Shown piece by piece: positions 33,001 to 60,018 of a stretch of 64,000 nt of DNA (position 1 is its first letter; every line of letters starts with the position of its first letter). The DNA is from Eledone cirrhosa. Lineage: Eukaryota. The stretch lies in the NCBI GenBank assembly GCA_964016885.1, contig OZ024757.1, forward strand, positions 11,036,001 to 11,100,000, given 5' to 3'. The notes under the pieces are model-generated. The model was not told the origin of the DNA and ran no database searches. It saw only the letters and a list, made by a program, of their open reading frames with translations. The translations under genes were made by a program, and so were the position numbers.

Positions 33001-36000
33001 CCCGACAGCTAACAACTAATGCAGGTAGTTTGTTCCATGGAGGTTTTAAAGGATCCAGTGTCTCGACAGCTAAAAACTGATGCAGGTAGTTTGTTCCATG
33101 GAGGTTTTAAAAGATGCAGCATCTCAACAGCTAACTACTGATGCAGGTAATTTGTTCCATGGAGGTTTTAAAGGATGCAGCGTCCCGACAGCTAACAACT
33201 GATGCAGGTAGTTTGTTCCATGGAGGTTTTAAAGGATGCAGTGTCTCGACAGCTAACAACTGATGCTGGTAGGGTAGTTTGTTCCATGGAGGTTTTAAAG
33301 GATGCAGTGTCTCGACAGCTAAAAACTGATGCAGGTAGGCTTGTTCTGTTCCATGGAGGTTTTAAAGGATGCAGTGTCTCGACAGCTAACCACTGAATCA
33401 GGTAGTTTGTTCCATGGAGGTTTTAAGGGATACAGTGTCTCGACAGCTAACAACTGATGCAGGTAATTTGTTCCATGGAGGTTTTAAAGGATGCAGCGTC
33501 CCGACAGCTAACAACTGATGCAGGTAGTTTGTTCCATGTAGGTTTTAATGGATGCAGTGTCTCGAGAGCTAACAACTGATGCAGGGAGTTTGTTCCATGG
33601 AGATTTGAAAGGATGCAGTGTCCCAACAGCTAACAACTGATGCAGGGAGTTTGTTCCATGGAGGTTTTAAAGGATGCAGTGTCCCGACAGCTAACAACTG
33701 ATGCAGGTAGTTTGTTCCATGGAGGTTTTAAAGGATGCAGTGTCTCGACAGCTAACAACTGATGCAGGTAGTTTGTTCCATGGAGGTTTTAAAGGATGCA
33801 GTGTCCCAACAGCTAACAACTGATGCAGGTAGTTTGTTCCATGGAGGTTTTAAAGGATCCAGTGTCTCGACAGCTAAAAACTGATGCAGTTAGTTTGTTC
33901 CATGGAGGTTTTAAAAGATGCAGCATCTCAACAGCTAACTACTGATGCAGGTAATTTGTTCCATGGAGGTTTTAAAGGATGCAGTGTCTCAACAGCTAAC
34001 AACTGATACAGGTAGTTTGTTCCATGGAGGGTTTAAAGGATGCAGTGTCTCGACAGCTAACAACTGATGCAGGTAGTTTGTTCCATGGAGGTTTTAAAGG
34101 ATGCATTGTCCTGACAGCTAACAACTGATGCAGGTAGTTTGTTCCATGGAGGTTTTAAAGGATCCAGTGTCTCGACAGCTAAAAACTGATGCAGGTAGTT
34201 TGTTCCATGGAGGTTTTAAAGGATGCAGCATCCCGACAGCTAACAACTGATGCAGGTAGTTTGTTCCATGGAGGTTTTAAAAGATGCAGCATCTCAACAG
34301 CTAACTACTGATGCAGGTAATTTGTTCCATGGAGGTTTTAAAGGATGCAGCGTCCCGACAGCTAACAACTGATGCAGGTAGTTTGTTCCATGGAGGTTTT
34401 AAAGGATGCAGCGTCCCGACAGCTAACAACTGATGCAGGTAGTTTGTTCCATGGAGGTTTTAAAGGATGCAGCGTCCCGACAGCTAACAACTGATGCAGG
34501 TAGTTTGTTCCATGTAGGTTTTAATGGATGCAGTGTCTCGAGAGCTAACAACTGATGCAGGTAGTTTGTTCCATGGAGGTTTTAAAGGATGCAGTGTCTC
34601 GACAGCTAACAACTGATGCAGGTAGTTTGTTCCATGGAGATTTTAAAGGATGCAGTGTCTCGAGAGCTAACAACTGATGCAGGTAGTTTGTTCCATGGAG
34701 GTTTTAAAGGATGCAGTGTCCCAACAGCTAACAACTGATGCAGGGAGTTTGTTCCATGGAGGTTTTAAAGGATGCAGTGTCTTGACAGCTAACAAATGAT
34801 GCAGGTAGTTTGTTCCATGGAGGTTTTAAAGGATGCAGTGTCTCGACAGCTAACAACTGATGCAGGTAGTTTGTTCCATGGAGGTTTTAAAGGATGCAGT
34901 GTCCCGACAGCTAACAACTGATGCAGGTAGTTTGTTCCATGGAGGTTTTAAAGGATCCAGTGTCTCGACAGCTAAAAACTGATGCAGTTAGTTTGTTCCA
35001 TGGAGGTTTTAAAAGATGCAGCATCTCAACAGCTAACTACTGATGCAGGTAATTTGTTCCATGGAGGTTTTAAAGGATGCAGTGTCTCAACAGCTAACAA
35101 CTGATGCAGGTAGTTTGTTCCATGGAGGGTTTAAAGGATGCAGTGTCTCGACAGCTAACAACTGATGCAGGTAGTTTGTTCCATGGAGGTTTTAAAGGAT
35201 GCATTGTCCTGACAGCTAACAACTGATGCAGGTAGTTTGTTCCATGGAGGTTTTAAAGGATCCAGTGTCTCGACAGTTAAAAACTGATGCAGGTAGTTTG
35301 TTCCATGGAGGTTTTAAAGGATGCAGCGTCCCGACAGCTAACAACTGATGCAGGTAGTTTGTTCCATGGAGGTTTTAAAAGATGCAGCATCTCAACAGCT
35401 AACTACTAATGCAGGTAATTTGTTCCATGGAGGTTTTAAAGGATGCAGCGTCCCGACAGCTAACAACTGAAGCAGGTAGTTTGTTCCATGGAGATTTTAA
35501 AGGATGCAGTGTCCTGACAGCTAACAACTGATGCAGGTAGTTTGTTCCATGGAGGTTTTAAAGGATGCAGCGTCCCGACAGCTAACAACTGATGCAGGTA
35601 GTTTGTTCCATGGAGGTTTTAAAGGATGCAGTGTCTCGAGAGCTAACAACTGATGCAGGTAGTTTGTTCCATGGAGGTTTTAAGGGATACAGTGTCTCGA
35701 CAACTAACATCTGATGCAGGTAATTTGTTCCATGGAGGTTTTAAAAGATGCAGCATCTCAACAGCTAACTACTGATGCAGGTAATTTGTTCCATGGAGGT
35801 TTTAAAGGATGCAGCGTCCCGACAGCTAAAACAACTGATGCAGGTATGGTAGTTTGTTCCATGGAGGTTTTAAAGGATGCAGTGTCTCGACAGCTAACAA
35901 CTGATGCAGGTAGGCTTGTTCTGTTCCATGGAGGTTTTAAAGGATGCAGTGTCTCGACAGCTAACAACTGATGCAGGCAGTTTGTTCCATGGAGGTTTTA

Positions 36001-39000
36001 AGGGATACAGTGTCTCGACAGCTAACAACTGATGCAGGTAGTTTGTTCCATGGAGGTTTTAAAGGATGCAGTGTCTCAACAGCTAACAACTGATGCAGGT
36101 AGTTTGTTCCATGGAGGTTTTAAAGGATGCAGTGTCTCGACAGCTAACAACTGATGCAGGTAGTTTGTTCCATGGAGGTTTTAAAGGATGCAGTGTCTCG
36201 ACAGCTAACAACTGATGCAGGCAATTTGTTCCATGGAGGTTTTAAAGGATGCAGTGTCTCAACAGCTAACAACTGATGCAGGTAGTTTGTTCCATGGAGG
36301 TTTTAAAGGATGCAGTGTCCCGACAGCTAACAAATGATGCAGGTAGTTTGTTCCATGGAGATTTTAAAGGATGCAGTGTCCCAACAGCTAACAACTGATG
36401 CAGGGAGTTTCTTCCATGGAGGTTTTAAAGGATGCAGTGTCCCGACAGCTAACAACTGATGCAGGTAGTTTGTTCCATGGAGGTTTTAAAGGATGCAGTG
36501 TCTCGACAGCTAACAACTGATGCAGGTAGTTTGTTCCATGGTGGTTTTAAAGGATGCAGTGTCCCGACAGCTAACAACTAATGCAGGTAGTTTGTTCCAT
36601 GGAGGTTTTAAAGGATCCAGTGTCTCGACAGCTAAAAACTGATGCAGGTAGTTTGTTCCATGGAGGTTTTAAAAGATGCAGCATCTCAACAGCTAACTAC
36701 TGATGCAGGTAATTTGTTCCATGGAGGTTTTAAAGGATGCAGTGTCCCAACAGCTAACAACTGATGCAGGGAGTTTCTTCCATGGAGGTTTTAAAGGATG
36801 CAGTGTCCCGACAGCTAACAACTGATGCAGGTAGTTTGTTCCATGGAGGTTTTAAAGGATGCAGTGTCTCGACAGCTAACAACTGATGCAGGTAGTTTGT
36901 TCCATGGTGGTTTTAAAGGATGCAGTGTCCCGACAGCTAACAACTAATGCAGGTAGTTTGTTCCATGGAGGTTTTAAAGGATCCAGTGTCTCGACAGCTA
37001 AAAACTGATGCAGGTAGTTTGTTCCATGGAGGTTTTAAAGGATGCAGCGTCCCGACAGCTAACAACTGAAGCAGGTAATTTGTTCCATGGAGGTTTTAAA
37101 GGATGCAGCGTCCCGACAGCTAACAACTGATGCAGGTAGTTTGTTCCATGGAGGTTTTAAAGGATGCAGTGTCTCGACAGCTAACAACTGATGCTGGTAG
37201 GGTAGTTTGTTCCATGGAGGTTTTAAAGGATGCAGTGTCTCGACAGCTAAAAACTGATGCAGGTAGGCTTGTTCTGTTCCATGGAGGTTTTAAAGGATGC
37301 AGTGTCTCGACAGCTAACCACTGAATCAGGTAGTTTGTTCCATGGAGGTTTTAAGGGATACAGCGTCTCGACAGCTAACAACTGATGCAGGTAATTTGTT
37401 CCATGGAGGTTTTAAAGGATGCAGCGTCCCGACAGCTAACAACTGATGCAGGTAGTTTGTTCCATGTAGGTTTTAATGGATGCAGTGTCTCGAGAGCTAA
37501 CAACTGATGCAGGGAGTTTGTTCCATGGAGATTTGAAAGGATGCAGTGTCCCAACAGCTAACAACTGATGCAGGGAGTTTGTTCCATGGAGGTTTTAAAG
37601 GATGCAGTGTCCCGACAGCTAACAACTGATGCAGGTAGTTTGTTCCATGGAGGTTTTAAAGGATGCAGTGTCTCGACAGCTAACAACTGATGCAGGTAGT
37701 TTGTTCCATGGAGGTTTTAAAGGATGCAGTGTCCCAACAGCTAACAACTGATGCAGGTAGTTTGTTCCATGGAGGTTTTAAAGGATCCAGTGTCTCGACA
37801 GCTAAAAACTGATGCAGTTAGTTTGTTCCATGGAGGTTTTAAAAGATGCAGCATCTCAACAGCTAACTACTGATGCAGGTAATTTGTTCCATGGAGGTTT
37901 TAAAGGATGCAGTGTCTCAACAGCTAACAACTGATACAGGTAGTTTGTTCCATGGAGGGTTTAAAGGATGCAGTGTCTCGACAGCTAACAACTGATGCAG
38001 GTAGTTTGTTCCATGGAGGTTTTAAAGGATGCATTGTCCTGACAGCTAACAACTGATGCAGGTAGTTTGTTCCATGGAGGTTTTAAAGGATCCAGTGTCT
38101 CGACAGCTAAAAACTGATGCAGGTAGTTTGTTCCATGGAGGTTTTAAAGGATGCAGCATCCCGACAGCTAACAACTGATGCAGGTAGTTTGTTCCATGGA
38201 GGTTTTAAAAGATGCAGCATCTCAACAGCTAACTACTGATGCAGGTAATTTGTTCCATGGAGGTTTTAAAGGATGCAGCGTCCCGACAGCTAACAACTGA
38301 TGCAGGTAGTTTGTTCCATGGAGGTTTTAAAGGATGCAGCGTCCCGACAGCTAACAACTGATGCAGGTAGTTTGTTCCATGGAGGTTTTAAAGGATGCAG
38401 CGTCCCGACAGCTAACAACTGATGCAGGTAGTTTGTTCCATGTAGGTTTTAATGGATGCAGTGTCTCGAGAGCTAACAACTGATGCAGGTAGTTTGTTCC
38501 ATGGAGGTTTTAAAGGATGCAGTGTCTCGACAGCTAACAACTGATGCAGGTAGTTTGTTCCATGGAGATTTTAAAGGATGCAGTGTCTCGAGAGCTAACA
38601 ACTGATGCAGGTAGTTTGTTCCATGGAGGTTTTAAAGGATGCAGTGTCCCAACAGCTAACAACTGATGCAGGGAGTTTGTTCCATGGAGGTTTTAAAGGA
38701 TGCAGTGTCTTGACAGCTAACAAATGATGCAGGTAGTTTGTTCCATGGAGGTTTTAAAGGATGCAGTGTCTCGACAGCTAACAACTGATGCAGGTAGTTT
38801 GTTCCATGGAGGTTTTAAAGGATGCAGTGTCCCGACAGCTAACAACTGATGCAGGTAGTTTGTTCCATGGAGGTTTTAAAGGATCCAGTGTCTCGACAGC
38901 TAAAAACTGATGCAGTTAGTTTGTTCCATGGAGGTTTTAAAAGATGCAGCATCTCAACAGCTAACTACTGATGCAGGTAATTTGTTCCATGGAGGTTTTA

Positions 39001-42000
39001 AAGGATGCAGTGTCTCAACAGCTAACAACTGATGCAGGTAGTTTGTTCCATGGAGGGTTTAAAGGATGCAGTGTCTCGACAGCTAACAACTGATGCAGGT
39101 AGTTTGTTCCATGGAGGTTTTAAAGGATGCATTGTCCTGACAGCTAACAACTGATGCAGGTAGTTTGTTCTATGGAGGTTTTAAAGGATCCAGTGTCTCG
39201 ACAGTTAAAAACTGATGCAGGTAGTTTGTTCCATGGAGGTTTTAAAGGATGCAGCGTCCCGACAGCTAACAACTGATGCAGGTAGTTTGTTCCATGGAGG
39301 TTTTAAAAGATGCAGCATCTCAACAGCTAACTACTAATGCAGGTAATTTGTTCCATGGAGGTTTTAAAGGATGCAGCGTCCCGACAGCTAACAACTGAAG
39401 CAGGTAGTTTGTTCCATGGAGATTTTAAAGGATGCAGTGTCCTGACAGCTAACAACTGATGCAGGTAGTTTGTTCCATGGAGGTTTTAAAGGATGCAGCG
39501 TCCCGACAGCTAACAACTGATGCAGGTAGTTTGTTCCATGGAGGTTTTAAAGGATGCAGTGTCTCGAGAGCTAACAACTGATGCAGGTAGTTTGTTCCAT
39601 GGAGGTTTTAAGGGATACAGTGTCTCGACAACTAACAACTGATGCAGGTAATTTGTTCCATGGAGGTTTTAAAAGATGCAGCATCTCAACAGCTAACTAC
39701 TGATGCAGGTAATTTGTTCCATGGAGGTTTTAAAGGATGCAGCGTCCTGACAGCTAAAACAACTGATGCAGGTATGGTAGTTTGTTCCATGGAGGTTTTA
39801 AAGGATGCAGTGTCTCGACAGCTAACAACTGATGCAGGTAGGCTTGTTCTGTTCCATGGAGGTTTTAAAGGATGCAGTGTCTCGACAGCTAACAACTGAT
39901 GCAGGCAGTTTGTTCCATGGAGGTTTTAAGGGATACAGTGTCTCGACAGCTAACAACTGATGCAGGTAGTTTGTTCCATGGAGGTTTTAAAGGATGCAGT
40001 GTCTCAACAGCTAACAACTGATGCAGGTAGTTTGTTCCATGGAGGTTTTAAAGGATGCAGTGTCTCGACAGCTAACAACTGATGCAGGTAGTTTGTTCCA
40101 TGGAGGTTTTAAAGGATGCAGTGTCTCGACAGCTAACAACTGATGCAGGCAATTTGTTCCATGGAGGTTTTAAAGGATGCAGTGTCTCAACAGCTAACAA
40201 CTGATGCAGGTAGTTTGTTCCATGGAGGTTTTAAAGGATGCAGTGTCCCGACAGCTAACAAATGATGCAGGTAGTTTGTTCCATGGAGATTTTAAAGGAT
40301 GCAGTGTCCCAACAGCTAACAACTGATGCAGGGAGTTTCTTCCATGGAGGTTTTAAAGGATGCAGTGTCCCGACAGCTAACAACTGATGCAGGTAGTTTG
40401 TTCCATGGAGGTTTTAAAGGATGCAGTGTCTCGACAGCTAACAACTGATGCAGGTAGTTTGTTCCATGGTGGTTTTAAAGGATGCAGTGTCCCGACAGCT
40501 AACAACTAATGCAGGTAGTTTGTTCCATGGAGGTTTTAAAGGATCCAGTGTCTCGACAGCTAAAAACTGATGCAGGTAGTTTGTTCCATGGAGGTTTTAA
40601 AAGATGCAGCATCTCAACAGCTAACTACTGATGCAGGTAATTTGTTCCATGGAGGTTTTAAAGGATGCAGTGTCCCAACAGCTAACAACTGATGCAGGGA
40701 GTTTCTTCCATGGAGGTTTTAAAGGATGCAGTGTCCCGACAGCTAACAACTGATGCAGGTAGTTTGTTCCATGGAGGTTTTAAAGGATGCAGTGTCTCGA
40801 CAGCTAACAACTGATGCAGGTAGTTTGTTCCATGGTGGTTTTAAAGGATGCAGTGTCCCGACAGCTAACAACTAATGCAGGTAGTTTGTTCCATGGAGGT
40901 TTTAAAGGATCCAGTGTCTCGACAGCTAAAAACTGATGCAGGTAGTTTGTTCCATGGAGGTTTTAAAGGATGCAGCGTCCCGACAGCTAACAACTGAAGC
41001 AGGTAATTTGTTCCATGGAGGTTTTAAAGGATGCAGCGTCCCGACAGCTAACAACTGATGCAGGTAGTTTGTTCCATGGAGGTTTTAAAGGATGCAGTGT
41101 CTCGACAGCTAACAACTGATGCTGGTAGGGTAGTTTGTTCCATGGAGGTTTTAAAGGATGCAGTGTCTCGACAGCTAAAAACTGATGCAGGTAGGCTTGT
41201 TCTGTTCCATGGAGGTTTTAAAGGATGCAGTGTCTCGACAGCTAACCACTGAATCAGGTAGTTTGTTCCATGGAGGTTTTAAGGGATACAGTGTCTCGAC
41301 AGCTAACAACTGATGCAGGTAATTTGTTCCATGGAGGTTTTAAAGGATGCAGCGTCCCGACAGCTAACAACTGATGCAGGTAGTTTGTTCCATGTAGGTT
41401 TTAATGGATGCAGTGTCTCGAGAGCTAACAACTGATGCAGGGAGTTTGTTCCATGGAGATTTGAAAGGATGCAGTGTCCCAACAGCTAACAACTGATGCA
41501 GGGAGTTTGTTCCATGGAGGTTTTAAAGGATGCAGTGTCCCGACAGCTAACAACTGATGCAGGTAGTTTGTTCCATGGAGGTTTTAAAGGATGCAGTGTC
41601 TCGACAGCTAACAACTGATGCAGGTAGTTTGTTCCATGGAGGTTTTAAAGGATGCAGTGTCCCAACAGCTAACAACTGATGCAGGTAGTTTGTTCCATGG
41701 AGGTTTTAAAGGATCCAGTGTCTCGACAGCTAAAAACTGATGCAGTTAGTTTGTTCCATGGAGGTTTTAAAAGATGCAGCATCTCAACAGCTAACTACTG
41801 ATGCAGGTAATTTGTTCCATGGAGGTTTTAAAGGATGCAGTGTCTCAACAGCTAACAACTGATACAGGTAGTTTGTTCCATGGAGGGTTTAAAGGATGCA
41901 GTGTCTCGACAGCTAACAACTGATGCAGGTAGTTTGTTCCATGGAGGTTTTAAAGGATGCATTGTCCTGACAGCTAACAACTGATGCAGGTAGTTTGTTC

Positions 42001-45000
42001 CATGGAGGTTTTAAAGGATCCAGTGTCTCGACAGCTAAAAACTGATGCAGGTAGTTTGTTCCATGGAGGTTTTAAAGGATGCAGCATCCCGACAGCTAAC
42101 AACTGATGCAGGTAGTTTGTTCCATGGAGGTTTTAAAAGATGCAGCATCTCAACAGCTAACTACTGATGCAGGTAATTTGTTCCATGGAGGTTTTAAAGG
42201 ATGCAGCGTCCCGACAGCTAACAACTGATGCAGGTAGTTTGTTCCATGGAGGTTTTAAAGGATGCAGCGTCCCGACAGCTAACAACTGATGCAGGTAGTT
42301 TGTTCCATGGAGGTTTTAAAGGATGCAGCGTCCCGACAGCTAACAACTGATGCAGGTAGTTTGTTCCATGTAGGTTTTAATGGATGCAGTGTCTCGAGAG
42401 CTAACAACTGATGCAGGTAGTTTGTTCCATGGAGGTTTTAAAGGATGCAGTGTCTCGACAGCTAACAACTGATGCAGGTAGTTTGTTCCATGGAGATTTT
42501 AAAGGATGCAGTGTCTCGAGAGCTAACAACTGATGCAGGTAGTTTGTTCCATGGAGGTTTTAAAGGATGCAGTGTCCCAACAGCTAACAACTGATGCAGG
42601 GAGTTTGTTCCATGGAGGTTTTAAAGGATGCAGTGTCTTGACAGCTAACAAATGATGCAGGTAGTTTGTTCCATGGAGGTTTTAAAGGATGCAGTGTCTC
42701 GACAGCTAACAACTGATGCAGGTAGTTTGTTCCATGGAGGTTTTAAAGGATGCAGTGTCCCGACAGCTAACAACTGATGCAGGTAGTTTGTTCCATGGAG
42801 GTTTTAAAGGATCCAGTGTCTCGACAGCTAAAAACTGATGCAGTTAGTTTGTTCCATGGAGGTTTTAAAAGATGCAGCATCTCAACAGCTAACTACTGAT
42901 GCAGGTAATTTGTTCCATGGAGGTTTTAAAGGATGCAGTGTCTCAACAGCTAACAACTGATGCAGGTAGTTTGTTCCATGGAGGGTTTAAAGGATGCAGT
43001 GTCTCGACAGCTAACAACTGATGCAGGTAGTTTGTTCCATGGAGGTTTTAAAGGATGCATTGTCCTGACAGCTAACAACTGATGCAGGTAGTTTGTTCTA
43101 TGGAGGTTTTAAAGGATCCAGTGTCTCGACAGTTAAAAACTGATGCAGGTAGTTTGTTCCATGGAGGTTTTAAAGGATGCAGCGTCCCGACAGCTAACAA
43201 CTGATGCAGGTAGTTTGTTCCATGGAGGTTTTAAAAGATGCAGCATCTCAACAGCTAACTACTAATGCAGGTAATTTGTTCCATGGAGGTTTTAAAGGAT
43301 GCAGCGTCCCGACAGCTAACAACTGAAGCAGGTAGTTTGTTCCATGGAGATTTTAAAGGATGCAGTGTCCTGACAGCTAACAACTGATGCAGGTAGTTTG
43401 TTCCATGGAGGTTTTAAAGGATGCAGCGTCCCGACAGCTAACAACTGATGCAGGTAGTTTGTTCCATGGAGGTTTTAAAGGATGCAGTGTCTCGAGAGCT
43501 AACAACTGATGCAGGTAGTTTGTTCCATGGAGGTTTTAAGGGATACAGTGTCTCGACAACTAACAACTGATGCAGGTAATTTGTTCCATGGAGGTTTTAA
43601 AAGATGCAGCATCTCAACAGCTAACTACTGATGCAGGTAATTTGTTCCATGGAGGTTTTAAAGGATGCAGCGTCCTGACAGCTAAAACAACTGATGCAGG
43701 TATGGTAGTTTGTTCCATGGAGGTTTTAAAGGATGCAGTGTCTCGACAGCTAACAACTGATGCAGGTAGGCTTGTTCTGTTCCATGGAGGTTTTAAAGGA
43801 TGCAGTGTCTCGACAGCTAACAACTGATGCAGGCAGTTTGTTCCATGGAGGTTTTAAGGGATACAGTGTCTCGACAGCTAACAACTGATGCAGGTAGTTT
43901 GTTCCATGGAGGTTTTAAAGGATGCAGTGTCTCAACAGCTAACAACTGATGCAGGTAGTTTGTTCCATGGAGGTTTTAAAGGATGCAGTGTCTCGACAGC
44001 TAACAACTGATGCAGGTAGTTTGTTCCATGGAGGTTTTAAAGGATGCAGTGTCTCGACAGCTAACAACTGATGCAGGCAATTTGTTCCATGGAGGTTTTA
44101 AAGGATGCAGTGTCTCAACAGCTAACAACTGATGCAGGTAGTTTGTTCCATGGAGGTTTTAAAGGATGCAGTGTCCCGACAGCTAACAAATGATGCAGGT
44201 AGTTTGTTCCATGGAGATTTTAAAGGATGCAGTGTCCCAACAGCTAACAACTGATGCAGGGAGTTTCTTCCATGGAGGTTTTAAAGGATGCAGTGTCCCG
44301 ACAGCTAACAACTGATGCAGGTAGTTTGTTCCATGGAGGTTTTAAAGGATGCAGTGTCTCGACAGCTAACAACTGATGCAGGTAGTTTGTTCCATGGTGG
44401 TTTTAAAGGATGCAGTGTCCCGACAGCTAACAACTAATGCAGGTAGTTTGTTCCATGGAGGTTTTAAAGGATCCAGTGTCTCGACAGCTAAAAACTGATG
44501 CAGGTAGTTTGTTCCATGGAGGTTTTAAAAGATGCAGCATCTCAACAGCTAACTACTGATGCAGGTAATTTGTTCCATGGAGGTTTTAAAGGATGCAGTG
44601 TCCCAACAGCTAACAACTGATGCAGGGAGTTTCTTCCATGGAGGTTTTAAAGGATGCAGTGTCCCGACAGCTAACAACTGATGCAGGTAGTTTGTTCCAT
44701 GGAGGTTTTAAAGGATGCAGTGTCTCGACAGCTAACAACTGATGCAGGTAGTTTGTTCCATGGTGGTTTTAAAGGATGCAGTGTCCCGACAGCTAACAAC
44801 TAATGCAGGTAGTTTGTTCCATGGAGGTTTTAAAGGATCCAGTGTCTCGACAGCTAAAAACTGATGCAGGTAGTTTGTTCCATGGAGGTTTTAAAGGATG
44901 CAGCGTCCCGACAGCTAACAACTGAAGCAGGTAATTTGTTCCATGGAGGTTTTAAAGGATGCAGCGTCCCGACAGCTAACAACTGATGCAGGTAGTTTGT

Positions 45001-48000
45001 TCCATGGAGGTTTTAAAGGATGCAGTGTCTCGACAGCTAACAACTGATGCTGGTAGGGTAGTTTGTTCCATGGAGGTTTTAAAGGATGCAGTGTCTCGAC
45101 AGCTAAAAACTGATGCAGGTAGGCTTGTTCTGTTCCATGGAGGTTTTAAAGGATGCAGTGTCTCGACAGCTAACCACTGAATCAGGTAGTTTGTTCCATG
45201 GAGGTTTTAAGGGATACAGTGTCTCGACAGCTAACAACTGATGCAGGTAATTTGTTCCATGGAGGTTTTAAAGGATGCAGCGTCCCGACAGCTAACAACT
45301 GATGCAGGTAGTTTGTTCCATGTAGGTTTTAATGGATGCAGTGTCTCGAGAGCTAACAACTGATGCAGGGAGTTTGTTCCATGGAGATTTGAAAGGATGC
45401 AGTGTCCCAACAGCTAACAACTGATGCAGGGAGTTTGTTCCATGGAGGTTTTAAAGGATGCAGTGTCCCGACAGCTAACAACTGATGCAGGTAGTTTGTT
45501 CCATGGAGGTTTTAAAGGATGCAGTGTCTCGACAGCTAACAACTGATGCAGGTAGTTTGTTCCATGGAGGTTTTAAAGGATGCAGTGTCCCAACAGCTAA
45601 CAACTGATGCAGGTAGTTTGTTCCATGGAGGTTTTAAAGGATCCAGTGTCTCGACAGCTAAAAACTGATGCAGTTAGTTTGTTCCATGGAGGTTTTAAAA
45701 GATGCAGCATCTCAACAGCTAACTACTGATGCAGGTAATTTGTTCCATGGAGGTTTTAAAGGATGCAGTGTCTCAACAGCTAACAACTGATACAGGTAGT
45801 TTGTTCCATGGAGGGTTTAAAGGATGCAGTGTCTCGACAGCTAACAACTGATGCAGGTAGTTTGTTCCATGGAGGTTTTAAAGGATGCATTGTCCTGACA
45901 GCTAACAACTGATGCAGGTAGTTTGTTCCATGGAGGTTTTAAAGGATCCAGTGTCTCGACAGCTAAAAACTGATGCAGGTAGTTTGTTCCATGGAGGTTT
46001 TAAAGGATGCAGCATCCCAACAGCTAACAACTGATGCAGGTAGTTTGTTCCATGGAGGTTTTAAAAGATGCAGCATCTCAACAGCTAACTACTGATGCAG
46101 GTAATTTGTTCCATGGAGGTTTTAAAGGATGCAGCGTCCCGACAGCTAACAACTGATGCAGGTAGTTTGTTCCATGGAGGTTTTAAAGGATGCAGCGTCC
46201 CGACAGCTAACAACTGATGCAGGTAGTTTGTTCCATGGAGGTTTTAAAGGATGCAGCGTCCCGACAGCTAACAACTGATGCAGGTAGTTTGTTCCATGTA
46301 GGTTTTAATGGATGCAGTGTCTCGAGAGCTAACAACTGATGCAGGTAGTTTGTTCCATGGAGGTTTTAAAGGATGCAGTGTCTCGACAGCTAACAACTGA
46401 TGCAGGTAGTTTGTTCCATGGAGATTTTAAAGGATGCAGTGTCTCGAGAGCTAACAACTGATGCAGGTAGTTTGTTCCATGGAGGTTTTAAAGGATGCAG
46501 TGTCCCAACAGCTAACAACTGATGCAGGGAGTTTGTTCCATGGAGGTTTTAAAGGATGCAGTGTCTTGACAGCTAACAAATGATGCAGGTAGTTTGTTCC
46601 ATGGAGGTTTTAAAGGATGCAGTGTCTCGACAGCTAACAACTGATGCAGGTAGTTTGTTCCATGGAGGTTTTAAAGGATGCAGTGTCCCGACAGCTAACA
46701 ACTGATGCAGGTAGTTTGTTCCATGGAGGTTTTAAAGGATCCAGTGTCTCGACAGCTAAAAACTGATGCAGTTAGTTTGTTCCATGGAGGTTTTAAAAGA
46801 TGCAGCATCTCAACAGCTAACTACTGATGCAGGTAATTTGTTCCATGGAGGTTTTAAAGGATGCAGTGTCTCAACAGCTAACAACTGATGCAGGTAGTTT
46901 GTTCCATGGAGGGTTTAAAGGATGCAGTGTCTCGACAGCTAACAACTGATGCAGGTAGTTTGTTCCATGGAGGTTTTAAAGGATGCATTGTCCTGACAGC
47001 TAACAACTGATGCAGGTAGTTTGTTCTATGGAGGTTTTAAAGGATCCAGTGTCTCGACAGTTAAAAACTGATGCAGGTAGTTTGTTCCATGGAGGTTTTA
47101 AAGGATGCAGCGTCCCGACAGCTAACAACTGATGCAGGTAGTTTGTTCCATGGAGGTTTTAAAAGATGCAGCATCTCAACAGCTAACTACTAATGCAGGT
47201 AATTTGTTCCATGGAGGTTTTAAAGGATGCAGCGTCCCGACAGCTAACAACTGAAGCAGGTAGTTTGTTCCATGGAGATTTTAAAGGATGCAGTGTCCTG
47301 ACAGCTAACAACTGATGCAGGTAGTTTGTTCCATGGAGGTTTTAAAGGATGCAGCGTCCCGACAGCTAACAACTGATGCAGGTAGTTTGTTCCATGGAGG
47401 TTTTAAAGGATGCAGTGTCTCGAGAGCTAACAACTGATGCAGGTAGTTTGTTCCATGGAGGTTTTAAGGGATACAGTGTCTCGACAACTAACAACTGATG
47501 CAGGTAATTTGTTCCATGGAGGTTTTAAAAGATGCAGCATCTCAACAGCTAACTACTGATGCAGGTAATTTGTTCCATGGAGGTTTTAAAGGATGCAGCG
47601 TCCTGACAGCTAAAACAACTGATGCAGGTATGGTAGTTTGTTCCATGGAGGTTTTAAAGGATGCAGTGTCTCGACAGCTAACAACTGATGCAGGTAGGCT
47701 TGTTCTGTTCCATGGAGGTTTTAAAGGATGCAGTGTCTCGACAGCTAACAACTGATGCAGGCAGTTTGTTCCATGGAGGTTTTAAGGGATACAGTGTCTC
47801 GACAGCTAACAACTGATGCAGGTAGTTTGTTCCATGGAGGTTTTAAAGGATGCAGTGTCTCAACAGCTAACAACTGATGCAGGTAGTTTGTTCCATGGAG
47901 GTTTTAAAGGATGCAGTGTCTCGACAGCTAACAACTGATGCAGGTAGTTTGTTCCATGGAGGTTTTAAAGGATGCAGTGTCTCGACAGCTAACAACTGAT

Positions 48001-51000
48001 GCAGGCAATTTGTTCCATGGAGGTTTTAAAGGATGCAGTGTCTCAACAGCTAACAACTGATGCAGGTAGTTTGTTCCATGGAGGTTTTAAAGGATGCAGT
48101 GTCCCGACAGCTAACAAATGATGCAGGTAGTTTGTTCCATGGAGATTTTAAAGGATGCAGTGTCCCAACAGCTAACAACTGATGCAGGGAGTTTCTTCCA
48201 TGGAGGTTTTAAAGGATGCAGTGTCCCGACAGCTAACAACTGATGCAGGTAGTTTGTTCCATGGAGGTTTTAAAGGATGCAGTGTCTCGACAGCTAACAA
48301 CTGATGCAGGTAGTTTGTTCCATGGTGGTTTTAAAGGATGCAGTGTCCCGACAGCTAACAACTAATGCAGGTAGTTTGTTCCATGGAGGTTTTAAAGGAT
48401 CCAGTGTCTCGACAGCTAAAAACTGATGCAGGTAGTTTGTTCCATGGAGGTTTTAAAAGATGCAGCATCTCAACAGCTAACTACTGATGCAGGTAATTTG
48501 TTCCATGGAGGTTTTAAAGGATGCAGTGTCCCAACAGCTAACAACTGATGCAGGGAGTTTCTTCCATGGAGGTTTTAAAGGATGCAGTGTCCCGACAGCT
48601 AACAACTGATGCAGGTAGTTTGTTCCATGGAGGTTTTAAAGGATGCAGTGTCTCGACAGCTAACAACTGATGCAGGTAGTTTGTTCCATGGTGGTTTTAA
48701 AGGATGCAGTGTCCCGACAGCTAACAACTAATGCAGGTAGTTTGTTCCATGGAGGTTTTAAAGGATCCAGTGTCTCGACAGCTAAAAACTGATGCAGGTA
48801 GTTTGTTCCATGGAGGTTTTAAAGGATGCAGCGTCCCGACAGCTAACAACTGAAGCAGGTAGTTTGTTCCATGGAGGTTTTAAAGGATGCAGTGTCTCGA
48901 CAGCTAACAACTGATGCAGGTAGTTTGTTCCATGGGGGTTTTAAAGGATGCAGTGTCTTGACAGGTAACAAATGATGCAGGTAGTTTGTTCCATGGAGAT
49001 TTTAAAGGATGCAGTGTCTCGAGAGCTAACAACTGATGCAGGTAGTTTGTTCCATGGAGGTTTTAAAGGATGCAGTGTCTCGACAGCTAACAACTGATGC
49101 AGGTAGTTTGTTCCATGGAGGTTTTAAAGGATGCAGTGTCCCGACAGCTAACAACTAATGCAGGTAGTTTGTTCCATGGAGGTTTTAAAGGATCCAGTGT
49201 CTCGACAGCTAAAAACTGATGCAGGTAGTTTGTTCCATGGAGGTTTTAAAAGATGCAGCATCTCAACAGCTAACTACTGATGCAGGTAATTTGTTCCATG
49301 GAGGTTTTAAAGGATGCAGCGTCCCGACAGCTAACAACTGATGCAGGTAGTTTGTTCCATGGAGGTTTTAAAGGATGCAGTGTCTCGACAGCTAACAACT
49401 GATGCTGGTAGGGTAGTTTGTTCCATGGAGGTTTTAAAGGATGCAGTGTCTCGACAGCTAAAAACTGATGCAGGTAGGCTTGTTCTGTTCCATGGAGGTT
49501 TTAAAGGATGCAGTGTCTCGACAGCTAACCACTGAATCAGGTAGTTTGTTCCATGGAGGTTTTAAGGGATACAGTGTCTCGACAGCTAACAACTGATGCA
49601 GGTAATTTGTTCCATGGAGGTTTTAAAGGATGCAGCGTCCCGACAGCTAACAACTGATGCAGGTAGTTTGTTCCATGTAGGTTTTAATGGATGCAGTGTC
49701 TCGAGAGCTAACAACTGATGCAGGTAGTTTGTTCCATGGAGGTTTTAAAGGATGCAGTGTCTCGACAGCTAACAACTGATGCAGGTAGTTTGTTCCATGG
49801 AGATTTTAACGGATGCAGTGTCTCGAGAGCTAACAACTGATGCAGGTAGTTTGTTCCATGGAGGTTTTAAAGGATGCAGTGTCCCAACAGCTAACAACTG
49901 ATGCAGGGAGTTTGTTCCATGGAGGTTTTAAAGGATGCAGTGTCTTGACAGCTAACAAATGATGCAGGTAGTTTGTTCCATGGAGATTTGAAAGGATGCA
50001 GTGTCCCAACAGCTAACAACTGATGCAGGGAGTTTGTTCCATGGAGGTTTTAAAGGATGCAGTGTCCCGACAGCTAACAACTGATGCAGGTAGTTTGTTC
50101 CATGGAGGTTTTAAAGGATGCAGTGTCTCGACAGCTAACAACTGATGCAGGTAGTTTGTTCCATGGAGGTTTTAAAGGATGCAGTGTCCCGACAGCTAAC
50201 AACTGATGCAGGTAGTTTGTTCCATGGAGGTTTTAAAGGATCCAGTGTCTCGACAGCTAAAAACTGATGCAGTTAGTTTGTTCCATGGAGGTTTTAAAAG
50301 ATGCAGCATCTCAACAGCTAACTACTGATGCAGGTAATTTGTTCCATGGAGGTTTTAAAGGATGCAGTGTCTCAACAGCTAACAACTGATACAGGTAGTT
50401 TGTTCCATGGAGGGTTTAAAGGATGCAGTGTCTCGACAGCTAACAACTGATGCAGGTAGTTTGTTCCATGGAGGTTTTAAAGGATGCATTGTCCTGACAG
50501 CTAACAACTGATGCAGGTAGTTTGTTCCATGGAGGTTTTAAAGGATCCAGTGTCTCGACAGCTAAAAACTGATGCAGGTAGTTTGTTCCATGGAGGTTTT
50601 AAAGGATGCAGCGTCCCGACAGCTAACAACTGATGCAGGTAGTTTGTTCCATGGAGGTTTTAAAAGATGCAGCATCTCAACAGCTAACTACTGATGCAGG
50701 TAATTTGTTCCATGGAGGTTTTAAAGGATGCAGCGTCCCGACAGCTAACAACTGATGCAGGTAGTTTGTTCCATGGAGGTTTTAAAGGATGCAGTGTCTC
50801 GACAGCTAACAACTGAAGCAGGTAGTTTGTTCCATGGAGGTTTTAAAGGATGCAGTGTCCTGACAGCTAACAACTGATGCAGGTAGTTTGTTCCATGGAG
50901 GTTTTAAAGGATGCAGCGTCCCGACAGCTAACAACTGATGCAGGTTGTTTGTTCCATGGAGATTTTAAAGGATGCAGTGTCTCGAGAGCTAACAACTGAT

Positions 51001-53858
51001 GCAGGTAGTTTGTTCCATGGAGGTTTTAAGGGATACAGTGTCTCGACAACTAACAACTGATGCAGGTAATTTGTTCCATGGAGGTTTTAAAGGATGCAGT
51101 GTCTCGACAGCTAACAACTGATGCAGGTAGTTTGTTCAATGGAGGTTTTAAAGGATCCAGTGTCTCGACAGCTAAAAACTGATGCAGGTAGTTTGTTCCA
51201 TGGAGGTTTTAAAAGATGCAGCATCTCAACAGATAACTACTGATGCATGTAATTTGTTCCATGGAGGTTTTAAAGGATGCAGCGTCCCGACAGCTAACAA
51301 CTGATGCAGGTATGGTAGTTTGTTCCATGGAGGTTTTAAAGGATGCAGTGTCTCGACAGCTAACAACTGATGCAGGTAGGCTTGTTCTGTTCCATGGAGG
51401 TTTTAAAGGATGCAGTGTCTCGACAGCTAACAACTGATGCAGGCAGTTTGTTCCATGGAGGTTTTAAGGGATACAGTGTCTCGACAGCTAACAACTGATG
51501 CAGGTAGTTTGTTCCATGGAGGTTTTAAAGGATGCAGTGTCTCAACAGCTAACAACTAATGCAGGTAGTTTGTTCCATGGAGGTTTTAAAGGATGCAGTG
51601 TCTCGACAGCTAACAACTGATGCAGGTAGTTTGTTCCATGGAGGTTTTAAAGGATGCAGTGTCTCGACAGCTAACAACTGATGCAGGCAATTTGTTCCAT
51701 GGAGGTTTTAAAGGATGCAGTGTCTCAACAGCTAACAACTGATGCAGGTAGTTTGTTCCATGGAGGTTTTAAAGGATGCAGTGTCTCGACAGCTAACAAC
51801 TGATGCAGGTAGTTTGTTCCATGGAGGTTTTAAAGGATGCAGTGTCCTGACAGCTAACAACTGATGCAGGTAATTTGTTCCATGGAGGTTTTAAAGGATG
51901 CAGTGTCTCGACAGCTAACAACTGATGCAGGTAGTTTGTTCCATGGAGGTTTTAAAGGATGCAGTGTCTCGACAGCAAACAACTGATGCAGGTAGTTTGT
52001 TCCATGGAGGTTTTAAAGGATGCATTGTCCTGACAGCTAACAACTGATGCAGGTTGTTTGTTCCATGGAGGTTTTAAAAGATGCAGCATCTCAACAGCTA
52101 ATTACTGATGCAGGTAATTTGTTCCATGGAGATTTTAAAGGATGCAGCGTCCCGACAGCTAACAACTGATGCAGGTAGGGTAGTTTGTTCCATGGAGGTT
52201 TTAAAGGATGCAGTGTCTCGACAGCTAACAACTGATGCAGGTAGGCTTGTTCTGTTCCATGGAGGTTTTAAAGGATGCAGTGTCCCGACAGCTAACAACT
52301 GATGCAGGCAGTTTGTTCCATGGAGGTTTTAAGGGATACAGTGTCTCGACAGCTAACAACTGATGCAGGTAATTTGTTCCATGGAGGTTTTAAAGGATGC
52401 AGTGTCTCGACAGCTAACAACTGATGCAGGCAGTTTGTTCCATGGAGGTTTTAAGGGATACAGTGTCTCGACAGCTAACAACTGATGCAGGTAGTTTGTT
52501 CCATGGAGGTTTTAAAGGATGCAGTGTCTCAACAGCTAACAACTGATGCAGGTAGTTTGTTCCATGGAGGTTTTAAAGGATGCAGTGTCTCGACAGCTAA
52601 CAACTGATGCAGGTAGTTTGTTCCATGGAGGTTTTAAAGGATGCAGTGTCACGACAGCTAACAACTGATGCAGGCAATTTGTTCCATGGAGGTTTTAAAG
52701 GATGCAGTGTCTCAACAGCTAACAACTGATGCAGGTAGTTTGTTCCAAGGAGGTTTTAAAGGATGCAGTGTCTCGACAGCTAACAACTGATGCAGGTAGT
52801 TTGTTCCATGGAGGTTTTAAAGGATGCAGTGTCCTGACAGCTAACAACTGATGCAGGTAATTTGTTCCATGGAGGTTTTAAAGGATGCAGTGTCTCGACA
52901 GCTAACAACTGATGCAGGTAGTTTGTTCCATGGAGGTTTTAATGGATGCAGTGTCTCGACAGCTAACAACTGATGCAGGTAGTTTGTTCCATGGAGGTTT
53001 TAAAGGATGCATTGTCCTGACAGCTAACAACTGATGCAGGTAGTTTGTTCCATGGAGGTTTTAAAGGATCCAGTGTCTCGACAGCTAAAAACTGATGCAG
53101 GTAGTTTGTTCCATGGAGGTTTTAAAAGATGCAGCATCTCAACAGCTAACTACTGATGCAGGTAATTTGTTCCATGGAGGTTTTAAAGGATGCAGCGTCC
53201 CGACAGCTAACAACTGATGCAGGTAGGGTAGTTTGTTCCATGGAGGTTTTAAAGGATGCAGTGTCTCGACAGCTATCAACTGATGCAGGTAGGCTTGTTC
53301 TGTTCCATGGAGGTTTTAAAGGATGCACTGTCTCGACAGCTAACAACTGATGCAGGCAGTTTGTTCCATGGAGGTTTTAAGGGATACAGTGTCTCGACAG
53401 CTAACAACTGATGCAGGTAATTTGTTCCATGGAGGTTTTAAAGGATGCAGTGTCTCAACAGCTAACAACTGCTGCAGATAGTTTGTTCCATGGAGGTTTT
53501 AAAGGATGCAGTGTCTCGACAGCTAACAACTGATGCAGGCAGTTTGTTCCATGGAGGTTTTAAGGGATACAGTGTCTCGACAGCTAACAACTGATGCAGG
53601 TAATTTGTTCCATGGAGGTTTTAAAGGATGCAGTGTCTCAACAGCTAACAACTGATGCAGGTAGTTTGTTCCATGGAGGTTTTAAAGGATGCAGTGTCCC
53701 GACAGCTAACAACTGATGCAGGTAATTTGTTCCATGGAGGTTTTAAAGGATGCAGTGTCTCGACAGCTAGCAACTGATGCAGGTAGTTTGTTCCATGGAG
53801 GTTTTAAAGGATGCAGCGTCCCGACACCTAACAACTGATGCAGGTAGTTTGTTCCATG
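1..53858. repeat. 61-bp tandem satellite array (about 880 monomers), continues past left edge
   Basis: Consensus AACTGATGCAGGTAGTTTGTTCCATGGAGGTTTTAAAGGATGCAGTGTCTCGACAGCTAAC repeated head-to-tail in one orientation, no unique spacers; last GTTCCATG ends at 53858. Copy number estimated as length/61. Confidence 0.99.
33145..48860. repeat. Higher-order repeat: 4 x 3928 bp (64 monomers + 24 bp of insertions)
   Basis: Marker ORFs recur every 3928 bp (33202/37130/41058/44986 and 35714/39642/43570/47498); 64x61+11+13=3928. Boundaries approximate. Confidence 0.93.
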
Positions 53859-54066
53859 CTTCAGCAACTCTGAGCGTGAAACAATGTTTCCGAAAGTCAT
53901 GGGAATTGTTCCGTTTTCTGACTTTGTAAATATGTCTACGGGTGTTAGACAGATGGTATTCAAAAAGGTGTTCAGGGTTGTTGTTGGCAAGATGGTTAAT
54001 AATCTTATGGGTGTCTACCAAGTCAGCTGCCAGATGTCGGAGCTTCAATGTATCCATGCCTAGGGA
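53794..54066 (-). mobile_element. 3' end of CR1/L2-like LINE ORF2 (5'-truncated remnant); probable satellite source
   Basis: Translation MDTLKLRHLAADLVDTHKII...LFEYHLSNTRRHIYKVRK...RKHCFTLRVAEAWNKLPASVVRCRDAASFKTSM fits the CR1-clade ORF2 C-terminal pattern L..RR...DL...YKI...TRGH..K...R..FF..RV...WN.LP..VV....FK. Confidence 0.85.
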
Positions 54067-54252
54067 AGAATGGATGTTTTAAAGGATGCACTGTCCCGAC
54101 ATCTAACAACTGATGCATATTTTTTTTTTTCATGCTTCAGCAACTCTGAGCGTGAAAACATGTTTCCGAAAGACATGGGAGCTGTGCTGTTTTCTGATTT
54201 TGTTGGCATGCCCACGGGTGTTAGACATGAAATTCAAAAAGGTGCTCAGAGT
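54064..54252 (-). mobile_element. Second, more decayed copy of the same LINE ORF2 3' segment
   Basis: Homologous to about 53798-53975; minus strand reads SEHLFEFH/SNTRGHANKIRKQHSSHVFRKHVFTLRVAEA...ASVVRCRDSASFKTSILP with a 2-bp frameshift and a poly(T) tract replacing the WNKL codons. Confidence 0.85.
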
Positions 54253-54944: not shown

Positions 54945-55079
54945 GATATTATGTGAGGTATGTGAGGTAAAGCCTTTACCATGAATATACAATAGTATAT
55001 ATAGAGTAATGTAAATGTTATGTGAGATATTATGTGAGGTAAAGCCTTTACTGTGAAAATACAATAGTATATATAGAGT
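54945..55079. repeat. 72-bp minisatellite, left part (about 2 units)
   Basis: Unit GATATTATGTGAGGTAAAGCCTTTACTGTGAAAATACAATAGTATATATAGAGTAATGTAAATGTTATGTGA; AAAGCC at 54969 and 55041. Confidence 0.9.
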
Positions 55080-55316: not shown

Positions 55317-55690
55317 CTACAGGCTGATATAGAGAGAAGACACATTCACTCTGGCCATTCTCCCTACTTTCACCCACCTTTCATAAAGCTTGCTGGGGTA
55401 GAGCACCTCTCTCTCCATTCTGATCCTTCTTTTAAAATGGTATTTGAAAAAGGGGACCAGTTGTTGGCCGGAGAGAAAGGTGTCTGACCTCAGCCCTTTC
55501 AGCCTCGTCCACCATACAACTTCTTTAGCCATGGCTATCACACAGAGAAAAACCGCCTGTCCTTCGTTTTATAAAGGGGGAGGCGGTTTGATCGTGACAA
55601 TGGACTCGATGGTCAACCGGATTGGTCCCACCCTCGACAGTAGTCGTTCCACATAGCCCCACAGGTCAGCAATGCCTGGGCAGTGTACGA
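55317..55690 (-). pseudogene. ORF2 C-terminal segment (after the zinc-finger/zf-RVT-like region), frameshifted
   Basis: Reads FVHCPGIADLWGYVERLLSRVGPIRLTIESIVTIKPP.../AVFLCVIAMAKEVVWWTRLKGL...LYISL*; C-P...W and W..R patterns are typical of L1/Tx1 ORF2 tails. Confidence 0.75.
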
Positions 55691-57451: not shown

Positions 57452-57472
57452 GTTGGTTAAAAGAGGAAGGAC

Positions 57473-59212: not shown

Positions 59213-59422
59213 TTCTATTAGTTTGCCGTAATAAATTTTAAATTGGAAAATTCGCCCCAAAAAGGGCCGAAAATAAATAAACTCAAAGTTTGACCAACAA
59301 GGCAAGGGGTTAATGTATATTACAGTATAAAAAAATTAATCAAAACTCACTTTTGAGTAAGTAAATCCAACTCGGTAGCCGAGCTTGTTCACACACGTCA
59401 ATACACGTCTCTCGTATACGAG

Positions 59423-59892
59423 ATGTTATGTGAGATATTATGTGAGGTAAAGCCTTTACTGTGAAAATACAATAATATATATAGAGGAATGTAAATGTTA
59501 TGTGAGATATTATGTGAGGTAAAGCCTTTACTGTTAATATATAAAAGTATATGTAGAGTAATGTAAATATTATGTGAGGTAACGCCTTTACCATGAATTT
59601 ACAATAGTATATATAGAGTAATGTAAATGTTATGTGAGATATCATGTGAGGTAAAGTTTTACTGTGAAAATACACTAGTAATGTAAATGTTATGTGAGAT
59701 ATTATGTGAGGTAAACCTTTACCATGAAAATACAATAGTATATATAGAGTAATATAAATGTTATGTGAGATATTATGTGAGGTAAAGCCTTTACTGTGAA
59801 AATACAATAGTAATGTAAATGTTATGTGAGGAATTATGTGAGGTAAAGCCTTTAGCGTGAAAATACAATAGTATATATAGAGTAATGTAAAT
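59423..59892. repeat. 72-bp minisatellite, right part (about 7 units, some with internal deletions)
   Basis: Same unit and orientation as 54945-55079. Confidence 0.92.
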
Positions 59893-60018
59893 ACTAAAGG
59901 GTAAAACCAGAAGTTCTCTACTTTTTTGGACCATTGCCCCTCTGATGGCCACAAAATACCCTCAGCTTTCCCCAGTGCTATTTCTAGGCAGACCTACCTA
60001 CATGCAAATAATATACAT

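What the first reader, a model, noticed from the sequence alone, without database searches (positions are those of the whole stretch)
53700..54066. A satellite of more than 53 kb adjoining its probable source: the monomer is a 61-bp slice of a LINE ORF2 coding end
Seen: on the minus strand the LINE remnant reads in frame ...FTLRVAEA-WNKLPASVVRCRDAASFKTSM with no junction sequence, and that final 61 bp is then repeated about 880 times. Known: WN.LP..VV....FK is the conserved C-terminal motif of CR1/L2-type ORF2, and TE-derived satellites exist in general. Inference: the whole array grew in place by tandem amplification inside this one LINE copy, with the progenitor still attached to the array edge. 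Whether this satellite family is already described cannot be determined here.
Basis: partly seen in the sequence, partly recalled or inferred. Interest (0 to 1): 0.9.

Follow-up and report, generated by a model that had tools for sequence, protein, structure and literature searches.

The report
LINE hotspot repeatedly spawning satellite arrays
An 86,000-base satellite sits inside one broken copy of a jumping gene, and the same 61-base piece is repeated head to tail in about a fifth of that gene's copies, mostly near chromosome ends and on small chromosomes, so satellites here likely arose many times in place.

Summary
The array is 86,349 bp (1,409 units, no gap). The LINE resumes in register at the far end with the rest of ORF2 and ~120 bp of 3' UTR. 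But it is not a one-off. Exact patterns find 759 LINE copies with two or more units against 2,698 with one (22%). All 13 arrays picked on the junction alone have LINE upstream, and 12 have it downstream. Sizes run from 2 to 64 units, plus a second giant of ~174 kb. Multi-unit copies are not one clade (p-AU 1e-6), and arrays carry private variants. The multi-unit share rises from 6% in large-chromosome interiors to 47% near their ends and 66% on small chromosomes. Best reading: recurrent in-place birth at one hotspot bounded by CATG, likely driven by recombination (inferred; no map). Some dimers appear to have spread as dimers. A flanking 10-bp inverted repeat is striking, but a test for its requirement was negative. 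TE-derived satellites are known; this replicated, position-dependent form inside LINE ORF2 was not found in 10 paper searches.

The parts
1..53858 (-). 61-bp tandem array in LINE-sense orientation; continues 32.5 kb left of the window to G000:C18:11,003,510 (86,349 bp, 1,409 units in all)
53798..53858 (-). First unit, in frame with ORF2 (WNKLPASVVRCRDAASFKTS); starts at the CATG that is directly repeated at the unit's other end in single-unit copies
53853..53862 (-). 5' arm of the perfect 10-bp inverted repeat that brackets the unit in single-unit copies; holds the palindromic CATG. The partner arm at this array's far end is degraded
53859..54068 (-). 5'-truncated LINE ORF2 remnant (host copy), 89.8% identical to another copy; at least 2,165 candidate relatives in the genome
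54064..54252 (-). Second, more decayed fragment of the same LINE ORF2 end in tandem (85%), with a T-run in place of the unit start

Best explanation
The 86-kb array lies inside one LINE copy, and the same 61-bp slice is repeated in about a fifth of that family's copies; these arrays likely arose many times in place, by a first slip between the CATG repeats at the slice's ends followed by unequal exchange that is likely more frequent where recombination is high. Shown: unit boundaries at the CATG direct repeat; LINE sequence on both sides of arrays; a size range from 2 to ~2,850 units; many separate insertions; array-private variants; a steep positional gradient. Inferred: that the first dimer usually forms after insertion by microhomology-mediated slippage or repair; that growth is by unequal crossing-over or conversion, later in blocks of tens of units; and that the gradient reflects recombination rate. 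No function is proposed; neutral by-product is the default.
For: Both flanks in register in the window's array. 759 multi-unit vs 2,698 single-unit 5' edges and 565 3' edges. 13 of 13 junction-picked arrays have LINE upstream (one only ~17 bp) and 12 of 13 downstream. Hosts have different 5' truncation points. Tree of 101 3' flanks: the multi label needs 27 changes, at least 5 forced by well-supported branches, and one clade is rejected at p-AU 1.2e-6. Shared derived variants per unit pair are 0.59 within vs 0.10 between 40 arrays; 1 of 183 window haplotypes with 3+ differences recurs in small arrays, 0 in the C2 giant. Units carry host-subfamily alleles in L104, L110, L052, L066. Multi-unit hosts are more diverged upstream than singles (6.4% vs 4.9%, n 41 vs 44, p 0.001), as expected if arrays accrue with time. 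Two segmental duplicates on C5 hold 5 and 8 units. Multi-unit share: 10/159 in big-chromosome interiors, 28/60 within 30 Mb of their ends, 15/43 on mid-size and 39/59 on small chromosomes (p 4e-11, 3e-19). Central and distal singles are equally diverged (9 vs 25 copies, p 0.77).
Against: Array units are less diverged from the family's common letters than their host flanks (window 4.2% vs 11.4%; 15 arrays of 10+ units 2.5% vs 6.4%), and the window array has no fixed host-specific change. Simple neutral in-place growth does not predict this; it needs early onset plus preferential exchange between identical units, or influx from other copies. L054, L132 and L165 are a related lineage with 2, 2 and 3 units that share variants in both units, so some dimers spread as dimers. 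L048, L161 and L068 are mosaics of two subfamily alleles, and L121 has common-type units in a GG-type host, pointing to exchange between copies. The multi label is mildly clustered on the tree (8 of 500 shuffles as low), the tree is mostly unresolved, and losses could mimic gains. Target-site duplications could not tie the two flanks to one insertion. No recombination map; the 30-Mb cut-off was chosen.
Confidence: 0.72

Rival explanations
1. Seeds are made at or before insertion. Source elements already carry 2-4 units (the duplication only replaces the last ~9 residues of ORF2), or reverse transcriptase jumps between the CATG repeats. Only later growth happens in place.
For: L058 has a 496-aa stop-free ORF2 stretch running into a dimer. 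The L054/L132/L165 lineage shares variants in both units and a 5' flank, with different 3' flanks. L052 and L066 both have 4 GG-type units. Array majority equals the family's common letters. A mutation in the inverted-repeat arm does not lower the multi-unit share (25/100 vs 26/98), as expected if seeding is early.
Against: Even dimers are nearly absent from large-chromosome interiors, where single copies of the same age and type are common (0 vs 70 on C1 33.6-102.6 Mb). One clade is rejected. Multi-unit hosts are older than singles.
Confidence: 0.17
2. Arrays are imported. Runs of units from existing arrays (by gene conversion or excised circles) integrate by homology into the single unit of another LINE copy, leaving seamless flanks that mimic in-place growth.
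For: Units are less diverged than flanks. Mosaic arrays L048, L161, L068; mismatch of host and unit type in L121. A donor pool of roughly 31,000 units (scaled estimate).
Against: Diverged haplotypes are almost never shared between arrays (1 of 183 and 0). The window's 66-68-bp length variants appear in no other fetched locus. Host-subfamily alleles fill the arrays of L104, L110, L052, L066. Only ~60 small arrays and one other giant were sampled, so a donor could be missed.
Confidence: 0.08
3. The length of the window's array is partly an assembly artefact.
For: Units ~82-270 hold about four near-identical copies of a 64-unit (3.9-kb) block, with 99% identical units at lag 64 in one bin and a longest identical run of 76 units. 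No contig spanned the junction region.
Against: The rest of the array is non-periodic, with 287 distinct 61-mers among 1,336, and has no N. The 61-bp back-joint is abundant in sequencing-run contigs of the best-holding organism (that run may be the assembly's source). At worst ~12 kb would be lost.
Confidence: 0.03

Closest known systems
Ogre LTR-retrotransposon-derived satellites of Lathyrus sativus (Vondrak et al., PMC7004042; passages read) and PisTR-A of pea (table rows in reviews)
   Same: Most arrays are short and embedded in dispersed copies of the element; a few expand to more than 100 kb; expansion depends on chromosomal position.
   Different: There the tandem repeats are part of the 3' UTR of an LTR element and long arrays sit mainly in primary constrictions. 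Here the host is a non-LTR LINE, the unit is ORF2 coding sequence, 78% of copies hold one unit, and multi-unit copies concentrate at chromosome ends and on small chromosomes.
Alu-, B1- and MaLR-derived minisatellites and the Haber-Louis model (seen as passages in PMC6947457 and PMC3389668; originals not read)
   Same: The unit is a TE slice flanked by a short direct repeat; birth at or after insertion; TE-internal hotspots are reported for AluS and LTR12.
   Different: The flanking repeat here is 4 bp (5-10 bp in the model as quoted) and is the core of a 10-bp inverted repeat. One site is hit in 22% of copies, arrays reach 86-174 kb, and a strong genomic gradient is seen, whereas PMC3389668 saw no obvious genomic hotspots.
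LINE-ORF2-related satellites: chicken HinfI/SCR1 and Cen2/3/4/7/11 (CR1), PROsat and Pvc20 (L1 ORF2), cetacean common satellite (L1 3' end) (review passages and tables only)
   Same: Satellite monomer homologous to the 3' part of a LINE.
   Different: As summarised in the reviews, these are sequence similarities between a satellite and a LINE. Hundreds of arrays each still embedded in its own LINE copy, with intermediates from 2 units up, are not described there.

Membership tests
non-LTR retrotransposon (LINE) | ORF2 with reverse-transcriptase domain | tested here: met
   RVT_1 E 2e-31 and 3e-31 in copies L058 and L092; best solved-structure hits are L1 ORF2p and R2; the window remnant is 89.8% identical to the family
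non-LTR retrotransposon (LINE) | Variable 5' truncation, common 3' end with simple-repeat tail | tested here: met
   5' extents from under 60 bp to more than 1.5 kb; (ATT)n tail after a fixed 3' motif in most closed copies. The window copy has lost its tail
non-LTR retrotransposon (LINE) | Target-site duplications | tested here: inconclusive
   Shared flank words of 10+ bp in 2 of 46 multi and 6 of 42 single copies, several in simple repeats; null 1%
CR1 clade (vs L2, Crack, Daphne, Kiri) | Placement of the RT domain with classified reference elements | not testable with these tools
   No Repbase/Dfam references. Homologues are unnamed or 'jockey-like'. The CR1-type C-terminal motifs are recalled, not from a call
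CR1 clade | APE endonuclease and ORF1 upstream of RT | not tested
   No full-length copy was examined
satellite DNA | Long head-to-tail arrays (tens of kb or more) | tested here: met
   86 kb here; ~174 kb on C2 from both ends and 7 of 7 internal probes plus a 10-kb stretch. Most other arrays are of minisatellite size
satellite DNA | Heterochromatic or centromeric location | not testable with these tools
   No chromatin or cytological data
Haber-Louis minisatellite birth | Unit flanked by a short direct repeat in the progenitor | tested here: met
   CATG at both ends in single-unit copies; 4 bp, shorter than the 5-10 bp quoted in PMC6947457
Ogre-type element-borne tandem repeat | The array is a normal part of the element and spreads with it | tested here: not met
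   2,698 of 3,457 matching copies have one unit; only small lineages look propagated as dimers

The most novel reading that the evidence does not exclude
One site in a LINE's ORF2 is a built-in satellite factory. Its 61-bp slice has duplicated independently in hundreds of insertions, at a rate set by chromosomal position, giving a replicated series of the same monomer from 2 to ~2,850 units with the ancestral state known. The family is then both a natural experiment on satellite birth and growth and a fossil read-out of long-term recombination rate. The CR1-type ORF2 3' end may be a recurrent satellite source across animals.
Probability: 0.55. Interest if true: 0.75.

Novelty: new variant of a known kind. 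Interest (0 to 1): 0.62.

Why it matters
How the first tandem copy of a satellite arises, and why some arrays reach 100 kb, is usually argued from single cases whose progenitor is gone. Here the ancestral single-unit state (2,698 copies) and at least 759 multi-unit loci of the same monomer coexist in one genome, each tagged by its own insertion. Birth rate, growth and homogenisation can thus be modelled against age, subfamily and position. The gradient (6% to 66%) runs opposite to the low-recombination accumulation model cited in PMC7004042's introduction, at least for birth and early growth. The loci are also likely to be highly polymorphic length markers. No biological function is shown.

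Tried and rejected
Inverted repeat as a required trigger: copies with a substitution in the 5' arm are multi-unit in 25 of 100 listed (108 found), against 26 of 98 with a control substitution outside the arm (p 0.87). A strict post-insertion requirement is not supported; the test is weak if duplication is early or one mismatch is tolerated. Unusual folding of the region: z +1.1 and +1.2 without the 3' arm, and -0.45 to -1.3 with both arms; not significant, although the stem is the minimum-energy fold. Segmental duplication as the source of the arrays: rejected in general, since 5' ends and flanks differ; it holds for at least two C5 copies. Inverted pair on C26 as the two ends of one array: they are separate arrays of 32 and 13 units. 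65-bp repeat at the far end as a LINE derivative: no alignment to the LINE end in three other loci; it is its own dispersed family. Target-site duplications: inconclusive. Expression: no RNA holder listed. Organism F: no 61-bp back-joint among the joints shown, but 102 rows were not shown and contigs cannot show absence. Pfam on the 91-aa remnant: nothing significant. Papers: 10 searches listed no description of this repeat; term look-ups for satellite/tandem/CR1 in two cephalopod repeat papers (PMC13282606, PMC8967140; passages only) found none. Their repeat libraries and supplements were not examined and may hold the family.

Full report
OBSERVATION. The window's first 53,858 bases are one 61-bp array (period 61, 877.9 copies, 92% matches) with no interruption. 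On the minus strand, 53794-54066 reads stop-free into the first unit. The stretch is 89.8% identical to another genomic copy. It belongs to a family with at least 2,165 candidate relatives, whose longer copies encode RVT_1 (E 2e-31), are variably 5'-truncated and end in an (ATT)n tail. It is a LINE. The CR1 label rests on recalled motifs, and no classified reference was available. The closest named protein is from Octopus sinensis (75% identity over 58% of the query), so the host is probably an octopod. The genome is 3.0 Gb and the window is C18:11,036,001-11,100,000.

THE FAR END. Neighbouring stretches show the array continuing without N to C18:11,003,510, 86,349 bp and 1,409 units in all. 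There the LINE resumes in register: last unit, the final ORF2 codons, then ~120 bp of 3' UTR (81% over 178 bp).

NOT A ONE-OFF. Of the 19 other copies fetched as loci's 41 matches, four already had 2, 14 and at least 25 (twice) units. Exact patterns count 759 copies with LINE-unit-junction, 2,698 with LINE-unit-LINE, and 565 array 3' edges, so 22% of matching copies are multi-unit. These are lower bounds. The junction 33-mer occurs 12,803 times, 577 of them in this array, which scales to roughly 31,000 units or 1.9 Mb (rough). The first 13 array loci's list, chosen on the junction alone, all have LINE sequence upstream (one only ~17 bp) and 12 have it downstream. The first 30 loci all resume LINE sequence after the array. 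Sizes were 2-64 units, except one: C2:3.80-3.98 Mb is a ~174-kb array with over 1.5 kb of ORF2 on one side and the 3' UTR and tail on the other. All 7 internal probes and a 10-kb stretch were array.

INDEPENDENT, LOCAL GROWTH. A tree of 101 3' flanks (53 multi, 48 single; copies without a detectable tail, open arrays, three truncated copies and two duplicates left out) needs 27 changes of the label. At least 5 are forced by supported branches, and holding multi-unit copies together is rejected (p-AU 1.2e-6). The tree is short (172 columns) and mostly unresolved. Units share 0.59 derived variants per pair within arrays and 0.10 between (531 units, 40 arrays). The window and C2 giants have different variant spectra and share 0 haplotypes with 3+ differences. 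Host-subfamily alleles fill several arrays (L104, L110, L052, L066). Two paralogous C5 copies hold 5 and 8 units. Multi-unit hosts are older than singles. The window array reuses a limited pool of unit types evenly along its length and has one local four-fold 64-unit block. This fits growth in blocks, or local over-assembly of up to ~12 kb.

POSITION. In one search's list, multi-unit copies on C1 lie at 0.8-31 Mb and 397-434 Mb, with one at 332 Mb. Singles run at about one per Mb through 0.8-103 Mb (13 vs 30 before 33.5 Mb, 0 vs 70 after; p 1e-6). Three variant-tagged genome-wide samples (321 rows on chromosome-scale contigs; 9 rows on unplaced contigs and 8 unlisted rows left out) give multi-unit shares of 10/159 in interiors of chromosomes over 90 Mb, 28/60 within 30 Mb of their ends, 15/43 on 45-61-Mb chromosomes and 39/59 on chromosomes of 44 Mb or less. 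The cut-off is post hoc, the samples overlap in part, and four C5 rows are probably paralogous (two checked). Central and distal singles are equally diverged, so age alone does not explain it. That ends and small chromosomes recombine more per base is general knowledge, recalled and not measured here.

WHY THIS SLICE. In single-unit copies the unit lies between two CATG words, the minimal condition of the Haber-Louis model (as quoted in PMC6947457 and PMC3389668). About 385 direct-repeat pairs of 4+ bp at 40-100-bp spacing exist in the last 1.7 kb of a copy. This pair is also the core of a perfect 10-bp inverted repeat, one of 2-3 of that length per copy (4 copies examined). That coincidence is unlikely by chance but post hoc, and the direct test was negative: 25/100 multi-unit with a broken arm vs 26/98 in controls. 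The trigger is therefore open. The duplication changes only the last ~9 residues of ORF2, so dimer-bearing elements could still move; L054, L132 and L165 look like such a lineage.

AGAINST. Units in longer arrays are about 2.5 times less diverged than their host flanks, and this array has no fixed host-specific change despite an 11%-diverged flank. Neutral in-place growth does not predict that. Early onset with preferential exchange between identical units could explain it (inferred), as could influx from other copies. Mosaic arrays (L048, L161, L068, L121) show that some exchange between copies occurs. Target-site duplications were uninformative.

OTHER ORGANISMS. Contigs of three other coded organisms carry the LINE end. 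The 61-bp back-joint appears in organism A (15 contigs), B (1 contig, plus 24 loose ends of junction type) and C (1 shallow contig); none was shown for F. An O. sinensis protein ends with the single-unit C-terminus. This is weak evidence that the hotspot is shared by relatives.

KNOWN WORK. TE-derived satellites, including from CR1 and L1 ORF2, are listed in two reviews (PMC9659126, PMC6947457; passages and tables seen). The closest parallel is the Ogre case (PMC7004042; passages), where short element-borne arrays occasionally expand, but in a 3' UTR and mainly at primary constrictions. PMC3389668 (passages) reports TE-internal hotspots in human without genomic hotspots. 10.1101/2024.07.05.602039 (abstract) concerns an ERV-derived centromeric satellite and is more distant. 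Ten searches found no description of this repeat; subscription journals and repeat databases were not searchable.

VERDICT. Real, and larger in scope than reported. The array did most likely grow in place, but as the extreme tail of a recurrent process at one LINE hotspot, not as the unique progenitor. New variant of a known kind; interest 0.62.

Noticed in passing
G000:C2:3,801,571-3,975,565 (L063, L127, L140-L148, L160): A ~174-kb array of the same 61-bp unit inside one LINE copy, with over 1.5 kb of ORF2 upstream and the 3' UTR and tail downstream; twice the window's array
   Followed up: partly
L024:4153-7404 (C18:11,000,153-11,003,404): A 65-bp, 50-copy tandem repeat abuts the LINE 3' UTR and replaces its end. 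It is a separate dispersed family (2,387 exact motif matches; arrays of about 1, 3 and 9 units at three other loci, with a similar flank at two)
   Followed up: partly
window 60018-64000 and L040 (to at least C18:11,110,000): A third tandem array, unit 53-55 bp, at least 14 kb long, begins 6 kb to the right; three unrelated arrays lie within ~110 kb
   Followed up: no
window 55613-57472 (-) and 58400-59335 (-): A different LINE-like element: a 619-aa frame with Exo_endo_phos (E 3e-12) and a partial RVT_1, and an upstream 311-aa frame without Pfam hit. A 72/60-bp AT-rich repeat lies on both sides (about 54950-55075 and 59423-59892)
   Followed up: partly
array units ~82-270 counted from the LINE end (about window 37,000-49,000): About four near-identical copies of a 64-unit (3.9-kb) block: a very recent duplication or over-assembly
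   Followed up: partly
G000:C4:47-51 Mb and 70-81 Mb (listing): Interstitial clusters of multi-unit copies on a 379-Mb chromosome; they might mark former chromosome ends or fused small chromosomes (speculation)
   Followed up: no
listings: The GG-type subfamily is common among single-unit copies (about a third of the 87 tagged singles) but rare among multi-unit copies (1 of 45 tagged), in line with it being younger
   Followed up: partly
G000:C5:12.46-13.03 Mb (L163, L164): Four like copies spaced ~175-215 kb apart; the two fetched share over 4 kb of flank and hold 5 and 8 units
   Followed up: partly
L024:963-1162: A 200-N gap lies 6.3 kb beyond the array's far end, outside the array and the 65-bp repeat
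   Followed up: yes
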